Origin: Octopus vulgaris
Taxonomy: Eukaryota
DNA: 64,000 bases
Reading direction: 5' to 3'
Assembly (NCBI GenBank): GCA_951406725.2
Contig: OX597816.1
Coordinates: 4,340,001 to 4,404,000 of the forward strand
Below the pieces are notes generated by a model, which did no database searches, had not been told where the DNA came from, and was given only the letters and a program-made list of their open reading frames with translations. Shown in pieces: positions 43,004 through 52,020 of this stretch. A program made the position numbers and the translations under genes. The stretch's first letter is position 1. Each line of letters opens with the position of its first letter.

Positions 43004-43231
43004 TTATTTAAAGCAGCAGAAAATTCTACAAAACCTGTTACTCTGAGTTTCACGTTGCCGTTCATCTGACAGTTTTTTCTAGCAAAAACTGTCAGATGAA
43101 CGGCAACGTGAAACTCAGAGTAACAGGTTTTGTAGAATTTTCTGCTACTTTAAATAAAGCACATTACTCTACCACTGGTATTTGAGTACTCTTTTTTTCC
43201 ACCTTGTTTCACATTTATGTGTTTACTCCGG
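43004..43231 (+). mobile_element. Miniature fold-back insert (74-bp arms) with a hammerhead-like motif, in (TA)n
   Basis: 43004-43077 vs 43084-43157 inverted with 1 mismatch; CTGT-CAGATGA-ACG gcaa CGT-GAAACTCAGAGTA-ACAG. Confidence 0.75.
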
Positions 43232-43274
43232 TATATATATATATATATATATATATATATATATACTTGCATAC

Positions 43275-44480
43275 ATGGGCATAGGGCATCAACAACGGTA
43301 CAAATAACATGAAATACGTAAAGAACGAGAAAAAATGGAAAACAGGACAAGGGACAAGTAAATACTGAGAAAGGACCCTATCTAGTCCTCATTTTGAGCA
43401 TTCAACGAAAATATGAGTCTTCAAAGACAGTTCCTCCCATAAATTCTAAATTAAAATTTAGGATTTATGGAGGGTCAAAATTGGGAACAAAAACAGGACA
43501 GTGGAGACATTCAAGGAAATAGAGCGAAAACAAACATGGAGGGTCGTTAGAGCAGAATGAGGGGAAAATAGTGAAAGGAGAAAAGATAGAAGAGCGAGAG
43601 AAAAAGGAACAAAGATAGAAGAGAGAAAGAAAATAAAACAAGTTCATTCTTTTGAACGTTCGTGCAGGAAAAGAAAGATGGACGATAGTCACGTGTGAGC
43701 AACGAGAGAGAGGGTGATGAAAAGAGATAGAGGGGAGACAGACAGGCATAAACGGTAAAGGAAGGAAGGGGAAATAGAATTAGAGAAGGATGCAGGGAGA
43801 AAACAGTATAGAGTAGAGAGTCGCATCAAAAAGGAGATGATAAACTTACTTGGAAATGGATGCGTCGCGTTCATTTAAATAATAAATAGTAAATAATATA
43901 TAATATATAATATATAATATATACATATACATATATATATAGGCAAACATACATATATGGGTACGGGACATCACCGACGGTGCAACTAACATTAAATAAA
44001 TAAACAACGAGAAAAATTTGAAAATAGGACAAGTAAACACAGAGAAAGGATCCTTTATCAGTTGTCCACTTTCCTCTTTCACCATTTTCTATCTATCTCT
44101 CTTTCTCCCCTCTTTCTCTTTCTCTCTCTCTCTCTCTCTCTCTCATTGCTCACACGTGACCATCGTGCATCTTTCTTTTCGTCGAGTGACCATCTTTCTT
44201 TTCCTGCACAGATGTTCAAAAAGGGCGGACGTGTTTTTTTCTCTTTCTTCGATCTTTTCCCTTTTCAAAAAAATATTTCTCACAGCTTTCACTATTTTCC
44301 TCTCGTTCTGGTCTAACTGTCCTCCATGTTTGTTTCCGTTCGGTCCCCTTGAATGTGTCCGCTGTCACGTTTTTTTTCCCAACTTTGACAATACGAGGCT
44401 TTCAAGACTCATATTGTCGGTGAATGCTCGAAATGAGGAGTAGATAGACAGCCGACAACTGATGAAGGAACCCTAGTAAT
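43275..44480. repeat. Two diverged copies of one interspersed repeat, with their main blocks in opposite orientation
   Basis: About 43381-43720 is the imperfect reverse complement of about 44140-44447; 43285-43380 resembles 43965-44055 directly. Confidence 0.7.
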
Positions 44481-44540
44481 CCGTTACAGTACTTACCTAG
44501 CGTACCTAAGATCGCCTGTGAACTAAACCCCCATACTTTG

Positions 44541-44985
44541 TATGTGGTTGTATGGTAAGAAGCTTGCTTCCCAACCACATTGTTCAGGGTTCAGTCCTAC
44601 TCCATGGCACCTTGGGGGCTATGGAGTGTTTCTAGTATAGCGTCGGGCCGACCAAAGCCTTTAAGTGGATTTGGTAGACAGAAACTGAAAGAAGCTCGTC
44701 GTATATATGAATATATATATATATGTGTGTGTGTGTGTGTGTATGTGTGTGTGTGTGTGTGTGGTGTGTGTGTGTGTGTGTGTGTGTGTGAAAGTGAGTG
44801 TATGTATGTGTATGTCCGTGTTTGTCGCCCCACCATCGTTTGACAAACGTAACTTAGCGTTTCGGCATAACAAACCGATAGAATAAGTAGTAGGTTTACA
44901 AAGAATAAGTTCTGGGGTTCATTTGTTCGACTAGAGGAGGTGCTCCAGCATGGCCGCAGTCGAATGACTGAAACAAATAAAAGAA
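44541..44985 (+). mobile_element. SINE family B, diverged
   Basis: Head, TG tract and tail all recognisable. Confidence 0.85.
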
Positions 44986-46936
44986 TACCTATACACACGC
45001 ACACACACACACACACACACACACACACACACACACACACACACACACACACACCCCCATATATATATATATGTGTGTGTGTGTGTATATGTATCTATTT
45101 TATTAATTTGCCTGTACGGCTGCTACTCGCTTACCATCAGTGATGGTATTTTGATAATACTGTCTCTCATATATATATATATATATTGGGGGGTGTATGC
45201 ATGTATGTATGTATGTATGTATGTATGTATGTATGTATGTATGTATGTATGTATGTATGTATGTATGTATGTATGTACGTATGTATGTATGTATTCACAC
45301 TTCATGTATGCGGGTATGTGAAAGGATATGTATGTGTGTGAGTGAGGCTCACCTACAGATTTTTCTTTCTTAAACGGTTTATAAAAGTACATAAAAGCCG
45401 GACAATCCTAAATTACCTTTTTATAGTGACTGATTACAGTGTAGGATGGAGCCAAACGCTTTGTTACTACAGGAATGGGGCACTTTAGATCCCACTCGAG
45501 TAGATAGTTGACAAGCATAGAAAATGGTCATTCTTTATCCCTTCATCACACTATTATCTCTAAACGCTTAATTTCAATTTACTGACGTTGAAATTCAAGA
45601 TGCTGACAACACACTCATCATGAAGATAGAATTGTATTCTGTAGTCAACTGGAGAGGGTTTTTTTCGTTTTTGGTACCTTGTTTTCGTTTTCGTATTTTA
45701 TATATTGATCATACTTTTGTTTTGTCTCATTTTTTATGGGGTGAGTTTTGTCTGTAAATTGCTGGAAAGAGCAAACCGTTTTCTTTTTTTTTTTTTCTTT
45801 TCTTGCTTTTTGTATTAATTCTTATACTGAGTGAAATAAGAATTTGATTAAACGAAGGACTTATTCCAAATATGTTTACAAACACATATATCATCATCGT
45901 TGTTATTACTATTATTATTATTGTTGTTGTTGTTGTTGTTGTTGTTGTTGTTGTTGTTGTTGTTTCTACTACTACCACCATATTTTGACTTTTTATTTAC
46001 GAAAGTTGAGTCAACTGGAGACTATTATGTTTTAAGTAAATTTGAATATTAAAAAGCCTAGCTCTGAGAGAATGTAAATATAGTCCTCCTCTGCTTTTGA
46101 CGTGCAGAAAAAGAGGGCACGTCTCTTGACAAAGGATTCACCATTTATTCATCACACCCCGAGGAAGGTGTACTTGGCTTCCTTCCCAAGTCAATGGAAC
46201 AGAATATTCAGGTGAGTATAAGACATTTGTAAATTAGATTCCAACGGTAGTGGTTAGCTTATTGCACATATCTGTGTTTTCATTGAAATGGTTGTAAGCA
46301 TTTTAACATCTGATGCTCAAAGCGAGAATTTTTCCTTCTCAGCAAACTGCAGTGAAAATGCCTCTTTACAGCTCAGATACGTCTCAAACATATTTAAACT
46401 TATCAAAGAGTTCTTTATTTCAAAACACTGTTTTGTACGCCTAAAATATGATTTTTATTCGAGTCTTGCGGCGAAGCACGTAGTCAATAATTACTTTCTG
46501 CTGATTGTTTATTAGGAAACCACAAGTCTCAAAGTCATTTCAGCTTCGCTTGCTGTCCCGTACTGGGGATAGTCAGAGAGTATGATATGCATTCGTTTGT
46601 CCAATACAGGCGCTCTGAAAAGATTGTCTGTATTTTAACACCTGGTTCCTACAGTCAGAATTTTCTCCACGTCAAATCGCAGTGAAATTGGCCGTTCTAA
46701 AGATCGAATATGTCCGTCCCAAACGCATTTCAATTTATCTAAGTATATACAAACACACGTACACACATACACACTCACATACACTCGCGCGCACGCACAC
46801 ACATGCATACAGACGTACACTCGTGCACACAACATACATGCACAAACATGCATGCACACATACATAACACATGGATACACACAAAAACATATATATGTAT
46901 ATATATATATATATATATATATATATATATATATAT

Positions 46937-50260: not shown

Positions 50261-50639
50261 AATGCATGTTTCAAAAAAAGATGGGTAAATGTAGCAAGGA
50301 TGGCACGTATGAATGACGAAGCCCCCTTGAGCATAATCCTATGAACCCGGAAAAATTTTAAACAGACGGTTACCTACTTGCAAACAAAATGTGGTAAGAT
50401 GTAACATTATTGACCGAGGTTACCGTGGTTTTTTTCCGTAGGCTTTTCTTTCCACGGATAAACCTTCTCTGCTTCCCCTTTACACTTTACATCATGACAT
50501 TTCTGTGATACACGATCCCTATTGATTGTTTTTTTCTTTTTCTTTTTTTGCTTTCCCCTTTTTTTCTCCCCCAAAAGAAAAGCTCTACTTTGTAATCTGT
50601 CCCGTCTGTGTGCAGCCCTGTGTGGCTAATAAAGAAACA
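50261..50639 (+). mobile_element. Second copy (3' end) of the Tx1-like LINE, directly after (TATC)n
   Basis: Homologous to the reverse complement of 20856-21400 (CFKKRWVNVARMARMNDEAPLSIIL*, 3'UTR, AATAAAGAAAC). Confidence 0.88.
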
Positions 50640-50715
50640 TCTCTCCCCCCCCCTCTCTCTCTCTCTCTCTCTCTCTCTCTATATATATATATATATATAT
50701 ATATATATATATATA

Positions 50716-51238
50716 TATATATTTGTAAAAATGAAGTTCGAAAATGCTGCTGTATTATACAATTTTTAATTTTTATATATACATTATAACATGTTTCAGT
50801 TCCTGAAATGAACCTTATCAAAAAAAGTTATATATAAAAAAAGACAGCTCATGCCGTCAAACACAAGAAATTCATTTATAATACACAACGGAGTCAGACA
50901 TCTTAGAGTTCATGTATAGTTGATATATAGTTCATGTATAGTTGATATATAGTTTGAAGTATATGTTCAAAGTGTTCGATGCAGTGGCCCACGGTGGCGA
51001 TACGTATTCAATACAAAAAACAGATCAGAGTGGTGGAAAGCGGTCAATATAGAAGATTGATGTTTCCGAAAGAGCGAGGAATTCATTTTTACCTTAAGCA
51101 ATTGTGATGACCCATGGTGGATGTTCTTTTTTTGATAAGGTTCATTTCAGGAACTGAAACATGTTATAATGTATATATAAAAATTAAAAATTGTATAATA
51201 CAGCAGCATTTTCGAACTTCATTTTTTACAAATATATA
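50716..51238. mobile_element. Fold-back insert with arms of about 110 bp and a degenerate hammerhead motif, in (TA)n
   Basis: 50716-50827 vs 51126-51238 inverted and nearly identical; TTGATAA-GGTTC..GAACT-GAAACATGTT. Confidence 0.7.
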
Positions 51239-51315
51239 CCTACTCGTATACGAGCTAATCCTATTATGAATATATATATATATATATATATATATACATA
51301 TATATATATAAAATA

Positions 51316-52020
51316 TGTACAATTACTCAATAGTCAAGATAAAACTCTGAGTTTCAGATGCCGAAGTGGAAATCCACAACACCATCTCTTCGGTTATCTG
51401 GCCATCTGAAAAAACGCTATAAAAAAATACCTATTTCTTTATTACCCACAAGGGGCTGAACATAGAGGGGACAAACATGGACAGACATAGGTATTAAGTC
51501 GATTATATCGACCCCAGTGCTTAACTGGTACTTAATTTATCGACCCCGAAAGGATGAAAGGCAAAGTCGACCTCGGCGGAATTTGAACTCACAACGTAAC
51601 GGCAGACGAAATACCGCTAAGCATTTCGCCCGACGTGCTAACGATTCTGCTAGCTCGCCGCCTAAAAAAATACCGTTATATAAAGGGAAATTACTGTGTT
51701 ATAATTCTGCTACTTATATAAAATAAGATTAAAATTTCATAGTAAAACACGGCTAGTCATTTTAATCTTATTTTATATAAGTAGCAGAATTATAACACAG
51801 TAATTTCCCTTTATATAACGGTATTTTTTCATAGCGTTTTTTCAGATGGCCAGATAACCGAAGAGATGGTGTTGTGGATTTCCACTTCGGCATCTGAAAC
51901 TAAGAGTTTTATCTTGACTATTGAGTAATTGTACACATTATTTTATAGATAAATTTCCTCTACTTTACATAATATTGAGGTCTCTTTCTTTCTTTTGTTA
52001 TCTTACCGTTTTTTACCAAT
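51316..52020. mobile_element. Fold-back insert with arms of about 175 bp and a hammerhead-like motif; left arm interrupted by a SINE A
   Basis: 51316-51431 plus 51675-51735 is the inverse of 51759-51935; AGATAA-CCGAAGA-GATG...CATCt-GAAACT(C/A)AGAGTT-TTATCT. Confidence 0.75.
51432..51662 (-). mobile_element. SINE family A with target-site duplication
   Basis: Flanked by TAAAAAAATACC at about 51420-51431 and 51663-51674. Confidence 0.92.

What the first reader, a model, noticed from the sequence alone, without database searches (positions are those of the whole stretch)
43004..52020. A class of miniature hammerhead fold-back elements in (TA)n with non-canonical cores
Three inserts unrelated in sequence (43004-43231, 50716-51238, 51316-52020), plus those at 11.1, 13.8 and 34.8 kb, share a layout: (TA)n, inverted partial copy, forward copy, often a short tail, (TA)n. 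Where intact they contain a type I hammerhead whose core differs from CUGANGA in both arms: CAGAUGA at 43093 (stem II ACG-GCAA-CGU, stem I CUGU/ACAG, GUA site) and CCGAAGA at 51858 (long stem II with an inner hairpin, stem I AGAUAA/UUAUCU). Because both arms carry the variant, it probably predates insertion. Inference: many Penelope-derived families with natural position-4 core variants, producing sense-antisense hairpins at high density.
Basis: partly seen in the sequence, partly recalled or inferred. Interest (0 to 1): 0.7.

Follow-up and report, generated by a model that had tools for sequence, protein, structure and literature searches.

The report
Penelope retroelement ends with variant hammerheads
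These hairpins are cut-short, back-to-back ends of known Penelope-type jumping genes, and several of their families, one with intact copies, carry an altered self-cutting-RNA core that likely cuts slowly, which would help test whether these elements need their ribozyme at all.

Summary
The fold-backs are real, but they are not a new class of miniature element. They are 5'-truncated 3' ends (pseudo-LTRs) of Penelope-like elements (PLEs), inserted head-to-head in (TA)n; this layout, tail included, is published. The 43.0 and 51.3 kb families connect to intact Hydra-type RT/GIY-YIG ORFs, the 50.7 kb family to a Neptune-like ORF.

The core claim splits. CCGAAGA (C4) is the family state at 51.3 kb: 99 of 100 listed among 3,162 matches, also beside intact ORFs. 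CAGAUGA is a private change (14 of 4,649) on a C4 subfamily (1,101); the majority subfamily is canonical. The 13.8 and 34.8 kb families are canonical.

Other abundant families carry G3-C8, U3-A8, U6 or C4 cores. In a 1 Mb genome sample 28 of 43 motifs were non-canonical, against 4 of 50 in marine Hydra relatives. U4C and U3-A8 are known natural variants. I did not find C4 fixed in an intact PLE, or natural G3-C8, in the papers I could read (Lunse 2017 not held). The scan noted G3-C8 and U3-A8 in this genome before. Cleavage, expression and editing are untested.

The parts
43002..43231 (.). Family A insert (Hydra-type PLE 3' end, C4 subfamily A2 background): inverted arm 43004-43078, forward arm 43083-43159, 72-nt tail to 43231
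43089..43126 (+). Type I hammerhead, private A4 core (43093-43099), predicted cut after 43122
43035..43072 (-). Second copy of the same A4 hammerhead in the inverted arm
50722..51269 (.). Family C insert (Neptune-like PLE 3' end, very young family): long inverted arm 50722-51125, forward arm 51126-51238, about 31-nt tail
51113..51185 (+). Candidate hammerhead with U3-A8 core (51132-51138); stem I imperfect; mirrored on the minus strand near 50821
   Evidence: 35 of 35 matches to the motif carry this core; the pattern allowed 3 mismatches; stem I read by eye, not recovered by the energy fold
51311..52018 (.). Family B insert (Hydra-type PLE 3' end): inverted arm 51312-51431 plus 51663-51740, forward arm about 51755-51946, 72-nt tail to 52018
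51852..51914 (+). Type I hammerhead with family-level C4 core (51858-51864), predicted cut after 51908; mirrored at 51393 (-)
51432..51662 (.). SINE-like repeat inserted later into the left arm, 12-bp direct repeat at 51420-51431 and 51663-51674
   Evidence: read directly; absent from the other family B loci shown
11100..11244 (.). Family E fragment, fold-back plus tail, cut short of the hammerhead; the family hammerhead has a G3-C8 core
13697..13957 (.). Family F fragment, tail on the left, cut short of the hammerhead; family core mostly canonical
34804..39010 (.). Family D long inverted insertion; canonical CUGAAGA hammerheads at 34934 (-) and 38951 (+); 71-nt tail at the left end

Best explanation
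The inserts are 5'-truncated 3' ends of several Penelope-like retroelement families lying head-to-head in (TA)n, and some families carry a changed hammerhead core that likely cuts slowly. Shown: family identity, ORFs, end points and core states. Inferred from published work on another PLE: the RT/GIY-YIG protein nicks AT-rich DNA and starts reverse transcription at two fixed sites downstream of the hammerhead, which gives one arm a short end and the other a long end (the tail). The cDNA runs through the cleavage site, so uncut RNA is likely the template, and a slow or protein-dependent ribozyme would cost little or even help. This would let C4, U6, U3-A8 and G3-C8 cores become fixed in master lineages while the fold and the other catalytic bases are kept. 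In the fold-back copies themselves the hammerhead is predicted to be locked in a long duplex on either strand, so these copies are likely inert by-products.
For: Intact 727-aa ORF between family A hammerheads and intact 717-codon frames in 2.58-kb tandem units between CCGAAGA hammerheads of family B, 2-6 nt different from each other. Both carry the published Hydra-clade marks RWK, DKT, CxCX5C, CxxC, CxH (against PMC8557442). Family C links to a Neptune-like RT/EN 860-980 nt upstream in 9 of 25 loci. Two fixed 3' ends: family A 36-39 nt (38 arms) and 107-112 nt (25 arms) past the cut site among the 68 arms in the classes printed; family B 30-44 nt (19) and 104-109 nt (18) among 42. The 5' ends vary freely. 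Inverted 5'-truncated copy, tail and (TA)n targeting are described in PMC8557442. Two RT start sites explain the tail, hammerhead mutants still insert in vitro, the ribozyme is protein-assisted, and C3G/G8C partly restores cutting (PMC11167929). Core counts with reversed-pattern controls of 0. U4C lowers activity in vitro yet supports a viroid (PMC3088659). In the six window families whose hammerhead was reached by homology rather than by a descriptor (A-F), G5, A9, GAAA, the U before the cut site and a Watson-Crick 3-8 pair are all kept. Whole inserts fold to -130 to -374 kcal/mol on both strands.
Against: No cleavage was measured, so 'slow' is borrowed from other hammerheads. The larger and younger family A subfamily (3,531 of 4,649; 0.6% against 1.5% divergence over 38 nt) is canonical, so C4 is not needed for success. 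No ORF was seen near any C4 copy of family A (about 55 loci with 1.5 kb flanks) or linked to families E, G and H, so their PLE status rests on layout and motif. Pfam gave no hit for the ORFs; domains were read from motifs and from a homolog's PF01541. A circular RNA made by cutting and rejoining would also give copies that span the cut site. The descriptor scans fix G5, A9 and GAAA, so they cannot show that these are conserved.
Confidence: 0.75

Rival explanations
1. The variant cores are dead or nearly dead ribozymes drifting freely because PLE transposition no longer needs cutting; the stem-loop persists only as part of the RNA end.
For: Hammerhead mutants do not affect insertion in vitro (PMC11167929); Naiads thrive without canonical hammerheads (PMC8557442); U6 in 95 of 100 listed family H copies removes a normally fixed A; variants are far commoner here than in marine Hydra relatives.
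Against: G3-C8 and U3-A8 are two-base changes that keep the 3-8 pair, in families E and C here and in 4 of 50 marine Hydra motifs on separate branches. Changes fall at positions 3/8, 4 and 6, not at G5, A9 or GAAA, in six families found by homology. C4 makes a CpG whose decay would restore U4, yet it holds in 99 of 100 family B copies.
Confidence: 0.2
2. The variants cut and rejoin well in the cell (as dimers or with the PLE protein), making circular RNA that is the template, as proposed for PLEs and shown for retrozymes.
For: Stem III of A and B is self-complementary (duplex -7.4 kcal/mol); family B occurs as head-to-tail 2.58-kb arrays; circle model in PMC4209133.
Against: No reads ending at the site were found for the anole PLE (PMC11167929); PLE hammerheads cut poorly even as dimers. 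Nothing here shows circles; the public runs held only contigs.
Confidence: 0.15
3. A distinct class of miniature non-autonomous hammerhead fold-back elements that move as hairpins.
For: Family E never extends more than about 40 nt upstream of its hammerhead in 67 listed hits (some loci overlap) and shows no linked ORF, so it may be a true short non-autonomous element. One fold-back is multiplied with its flanks (7 of 30 loci; L442).
Against: In A, B and C the same ends flank ORF-bearing insertions of several kb; each fold-back has its own centre; only 12 of 43 sampled motifs have an antisense partner within 1.5 kb. The multiplied copy is a passenger in a larger repeat.
Confidence: 0.1
4. MITEs or other DNA transposons with terminal inverted repeats in TA.
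For: Inverted ends with fixed outer end points, in TA sequence.
Against: The two ends differ by a fixed tail, the inner ends vary, many copies have one arm only, and the partner ORF is RT plus GIY-YIG, not a transposase.
Confidence: 0.02

Closest known systems
Hydra clade of Penelope-like elements (Craig et al. 2021, PMC8557442; read: passages of the main text, supplement parts 2-3 of 59 and term searches)
   Same: RWK, DKT, CxCX5C, CxxC/CxH, C-terminal GIY-YIG, (TA)n target, 3' hammerhead with 7-nt palindromic stem III, inverted 5'-truncated copy and tail. A Hydra family from Octopus bimaculoides is listed.
   Different: All 26 Hydra rows of File S2 have CUGANGA (found with a canonical descriptor); the listed octopus motif is not family A or B. 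Family B and subfamily A2 have C4. Tail about 72 nt against the 30-40 nt stated. A1 unit is 3.36 kb.
Minimal type I hammerheads of metazoan PLEs (Cervera and de la Pena 2014, PMC4209133; read: parts 1-2 of 4 and passages of supplement file 2; file 1 could not be searched)
   Same: Short palindromic stem III, dimer-type design, opposite-strand pairs 100-700 bp apart, U3-A8 variant in about 1,300 Schistosoma copies.
   Different: No C4, U6 or G3-C8 family in what I read; 'octopus' has 0 hits in supplement file 2.
Anole Poseidon PLE in vitro (Frangieh et al. 2024, PMC11167929; read: parts 1-2 of 4)
   Same: Two fixed 3' ends from two RT start sites downstream of the hammerhead; AT-rich target.
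   Different: Another clade; canonical core. C3G/G8C appears there as a laboratory rescue mutant, whereas family E has it naturally.
Natural hammerhead core variants (Perreault et al. 2011, PMC3088659, passages and section 8; CYGANGA descriptor in PMC13481778, passages)
   Same: U4C, U3-A8 and a position-6 change (A6C) are known natural, slower variants; C or U at position 4 is already allowed in a published descriptor.
   Different: Described as rare, in viroids, phages and viromes, not as the fixed state of retroelement families with thousands of copies. A6U and natural G3-C8 are not in the passages read.
Animal non-LTR retrozymes (PMC7229834, passages; bioRxiv 10.64898/2026.07.22.740005, part 1 of 5)
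   Same: Short, non-coding, type I hammerhead, PLE-derived.
   Different: Retrozymes are head-to-tail tandems making circular RNA; these inserts are head-to-head truncation products.

Membership tests
Penelope-like element, Hydra clade (families A, B) | Single ORF with RT and C-terminal GIY-YIG endonuclease | tested here: met
   727-aa and 717-codon open frames with RT motifs and IY/YxG motifs; no Pfam hit; a homolog carries PF01541
Penelope-like element, Hydra clade (families A, B) | RWK, DKT, CxCX5C linker, CxxC and CxH | tested here: met
   against the description; one A1 copy (L086) has one linker Cys changed, L088 has the full motif
Penelope-like element, Hydra clade (families A, B) | Generally under 3 kb, inserted in (TA)n | tested here: met
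   B unit 2.58 kb; A1 unit 3.36 kb (slightly long); (TA)n flanks
Penelope-like element, Hydra clade (families A, B) | Inverted 5'-truncated copy and tail at one end | tested here: met
Penelope-like element, Hydra clade (families A, B) | Placement in a tree with named Hydra reference proteins | not tested
   the tree (quick method, 45 rows) holds only unnamed metagenome homologs
Penelope-like element, Neptune-like (family C) | RT, CX2-5CxxC linker, GIY-YIG with CCHH, optional ORF1 | tested here: met
   frames in L286, L294, L302 read by eye; Neptune against Nematis not resolved by a tree
Penelope-like element (families E, G, H and subfamily A2) | Own RT/EN ORF upstream of the hammerhead | tested here: inconclusive
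   no linked ORF in 1.5-kb flanks; A2 shares up to 911 nt of 3' UTR with A1 at 76-87%
Canonical type I hammerhead ribozyme | Core CUGANGA | tested here: not met
   A4 at 43093, C4 at 51858, U3-A8 at 51132, G3-C8 in family E; met in A1, D and F
Canonical type I hammerhead ribozyme | Stems I-III around the core, GAAA, UH site, paired positions 3-8 | tested here: met
   stem I of family C is imperfect; no hammerhead family among the 150 of 337 Rfam rows shown
Canonical type I hammerhead ribozyme | Site-specific self-cleavage | not testable with these tools
   needs an in vitro assay or raw reads; only contigs were served
MITE / TIR DNA transposon | Equal terminal inverted repeats, fixed length, transposase partner | tested here: not met
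   unequal ends, variable centres, RT partner
Non-LTR retrozyme | Head-to-tail tandem of short monomers with a hammerhead each | tested here: not met
   window inserts are head-to-head

The most novel reading that the evidence does not exclude
Octopus Penelope-like elements have repeatedly and under selection swapped their hammerhead cores for attenuated, protein-switched versions (C4, U6, U3-A8, G3-C8), so that most hammerheads in this genome are non-canonical yet functional, are missed by CUGANGA searches, and act as a timer that keeps the RNA whole until the element's own protein binds.
Probability: 0.25. Interest if true: 0.65.

Novelty: new variant of a known kind. Interest (0 to 1): 0.4.

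Why it matters
What the hammerhead does for Penelope-like elements is an open question. This genome offers matched natural pairs to test it: a canonical and a C4 subfamily of one element (A1, A2), an intact and recently copied element with C4 (B), and thousands of copies with a swapped 3-8 pair or U6. If they cut slowly or only with the protein, that supports a regulatory role and widens the natural hammerhead consensus. It also means canonical descriptors miss about two thirds of the motifs here (28 of 43 sampled). The fold-back layout itself is ordinary.

Tried and rejected
Rfam scan of the window: rows dominated by microsatellite look-alikes of miRNAs; no hammerhead among the 150 of 337 rows shown. 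The repeat finder was swamped by microsatellites. The first descriptor missed the 51.3 kb motif because of an extra base before GAAA (fixed). The first fold-back counter missed known window hairpins and was discarded (part 1; redone). Pfam: 0 families for 3 of 3 proteins. Expression: no RNA holder listed on record; both read-laying runs had contigs only, so no RNA ends, strand or level. The excess of A>G and T>C in two runs cannot be told from subfamily differences and was not seen on family E: not used. Arm-sharing test: in 21 family A pairs, 37 rare differences were in one arm only and 6 in both, 3 of those a junction artefact in L202; no sign of wholesale arm homogenisation. Covariation of position 4 with the base before GAAA in family A: no structural reason found, treated as subfamily linkage. 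The tree joins A1 and B (SH-aLRT 96) but on long branches with the quick method, so a single origin of C4 is not claimed. Lunse et al. 2017 is not held; one search opened an unrelated paper. Literature searches behind 'not found'.
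Full report
Setting. The window lies in a 2.8-Gb, 227-contig animal genome. I take it to be an octopus from its size and repeats; this is my inference and partly recalled.

Observation. The three main inserts are real fold-backs between (TA)n tracts, 95-99% complementary. The hammerhead layouts are as written at 43093/43068 and 51858/51393. 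Several details differ. A SINE-like repeat with a 12-bp direct repeat splits the left arm at 51432-51662. The 50.7 kb insert has a candidate U3-A8 hammerhead in both arms. The 11.1 and 13.8 kb inserts lack their family's hammerhead. The 34.8 kb insert is one end of a 4.2 kb inverted insertion with canonical cores. Fold-backs with (TA)n on both sides number 5 in the window and 35 in 100 evenly spaced 10-kb samples (P about 0.08), so the density is a genome-wide property.

What the inserts are. Family A (43.0 kb): among 10 stretches fetched around paired hammerheads, L086 and L088 hold an intact 727-aa ORF between two hammerheads about 3.36 kb apart. Family B (51.3 kb): head-to-tail 2.58-kb units with intact 717-codon frames, each bounded by CCGAAGA hammerheads; three frames differ by 2-6 nt. 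The two proteins are 45% identical and show RWK, DKT, CxCX5C, CxxC and CxH, the marks given for the Hydra clade of PLEs, which targets (TA)n (PMC8557442). Pfam found nothing in 3 of 3 proteins; 1,764 homologs were found among 7,998 candidates scored, one with the GIY-YIG family PF01541 (family name recalled). Family C (50.7 kb) is very young (all 40 places scored are 100% identical over the arm) and links to a Neptune-like RT/EN in 9 of 25 loci. In all families the 5' ends vary and the 3' ends are fixed at two points: for A, 36-39 nt (38 arms) and 107-112 nt (25 arms) past the predicted cut among 68 arms in the classes printed; for B, 30-44 nt (19) and 104-109 nt (18) among 42. An inverted 5'-truncated copy with a tail is the published PLE insertion pattern; opposite-strand hammerhead pairs 100-700 bp apart were reported in 2014; the tail is the stretch between two RT start sites. 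So the layout is known, and it is not a TIR transposon.

The cores. Exact pattern counts, with reversed-pattern controls all 0: family A 4,649 matches, of which C4 1,101, A4 14 and G4 3, leaving 3,531 U4. Two of the 14 A4 are this insert's arms; two more share its subtype, so A4 is a private or tiny-lineage change on the C4 subfamily A2. Family B: 3,162 matches, C4 in 99 of the first 100 listed. Family E (11.1 kb): 1,929 matches, G3-C8 in 95 of 100 listed, with a 7-bp stem I, 5-bp stem II and palindromic stem III; 7 of 30 fetched loci are one copy multiplied inside a larger repeat, so independent insertions are fewer. Two further families came from the genome sample: G, 5,694 matches, C4 86, U4 12, A4 2 of 100; H, 8,495 matches, U6 in 95 and A6 in 1 of 100. 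The lists are the first places on the largest contigs, and counts are exact matches, not copy numbers. D and F are canonical or mostly so. A relaxed descriptor on the 1 Mb sample gave 43 motifs: 15 canonical, 9 C4, 9 U6, 7 U3-A8, 1 G3-C8, 1 G6, 1 A4, against 0.3 per Mb in shuffles. The same kind of scan on 78 metagenome loci with Hydra-type ORFs found motifs in 56; of 50 distinct sense motifs 46 were canonical, 2 U3-A8, 2 G3-C8 and none C4 (about 1.2 expected by chance; one C4 motif lay antisense; 22 loci gave nothing). The two samples are drawn differently (genomic copies of mixed clades against ORF-bearing contigs of one clade), so the contrast is suggestive only. In a quick tree of 45 proteins the two marine G3-C8 cases sit on separate supported branches, and A1 and B are sisters on long branches (loci without a motif, near-duplicates and short hits were left out). 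Contigs from public runs under four organism codes show no difference at positions 3 and 8 of family E at the 10% threshold (cover is thin in one run), and a contig under a second organism code spans the family B hammerhead with one difference elsewhere, so the cores are not assembly errors.

How it likely works. Shown: copies run through the cut site and end at two fixed points beyond it. Inferred from the anole element: the protein nicks AT-rich DNA and starts cDNA at two internal sites on RNA that is mostly uncut; hammerhead mutants still insert; cutting needs the protein; the C3G/G8C double change partly restores cutting. U4C lowers activity but supports a viroid in vivo, and an A6 change gives low activity. 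I therefore read the variant cores as slow ribozymes that master lineages tolerate or favour. Compensated 3-8 swaps and the kept G5, A9, GAAA and U in six families reached by homology argue that the fold is still under selection. Against a benefit: the canonical A1 subfamily is the larger and younger one. In the fold-backs, each strand makes the antisense arm before the sense hammerhead and the RNA folds into a long duplex, so these copies are predicted not to cut. Whether they yield double-stranded RNA, small RNAs or editing was not shown.

Against what is known. The elements belong to known PLE clades; a Hydra family from another octopus is already listed, and all 26 Hydra hammerheads in that table are canonical, though found with a canonical descriptor. 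U4C and U3-A8 are known natural variants, and CYGANGA is used as a descriptor. In nine searches and the texts named under Closest known systems I found no report of C4 fixed in an intact PLE family, of U6 families, or of natural G3-C8, which appears only as a laboratory mutant. Lunse et al. 2017, on about this subject, was not held and could lower the novelty. Other papers seen: PMC6765202, PMC10085705 and PMC3884650 (passages), PMC13282606 (part 1 of 3). Earlier scan notes report G3-C8 and U3-A8 motifs in this genome and others; none came up for the C4 families.

Verdict. Ordinary PLE insertion products with a real, family-level set of unusual hammerhead cores. New variant of a known kind; interest 0.4.

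Noticed in passing
window 49259-49363 (-): U6 snRNA match, 52.2 bits, above the Rfam gathering score of 44; gene or pseudogene not decided.
   Followed up: no
window 61857-61888 (+): Copy of family H minimal hammerhead with U6 core; 8,495 exact matches in the genome, position 7 free, no ORF link found.
   Followed up: partly
window 10356-10918 and 52870-53528 (+): Broken remnants of Hydra-type PLE ORFs.
   Followed up: no
L378:2602, L385:4051, L373:2400, L383:2103: Marine metagenome Hydra-type PLEs with G3-C8 (two) and U3-A8 (two) cores; L378 and L383 are sisters in the tree; the L385 motif lies 1.65 kb from its ORF and may belong to another element.
   Followed up: partly
L144:6730: A second G3-C8 motif in this genome, unrelated in sequence to family E.
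   Followed up: no
family A: Position 4 goes with the base before GAAA: U4 with A, C4 mostly with G (83 of 100). Looks compensatory, but no pairing is known to me; may be subfamily linkage.
   Followed up: partly
families A, B, D (window tails 43160-43231, 51947-52018, 34804-34874): Tail of 71-72 nt in three unrelated families, about 31 nt in C, about 60 in E and about 88 in F, against 30-40 nt in the literature.
   Followed up: partly
L442 and L338, L347-L351, L359: A composite repeat holding a family B tail and a family E fold-back is multiplied with its flanks, itself in inverted and tandem arrangement.
   Followed up: no
window 30925-31745 and 58537-59732: Inverted pairs of the common SINE-like repeat, another source of fold-backs not tied to hammerheads.
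   Followed up: no
L247:1300-4100, runs X9 and X17: Excess of A>G and T>C differences (50 of 68 in X9); editing or subfamily differences, not separable with contigs.
   Followed up: partly
L294:1634-3070, L306, L307: Family C carries an upstream ORF1-like frame of about 480 codons with coiled-coil-like and repeated segments.
   Followed up: no
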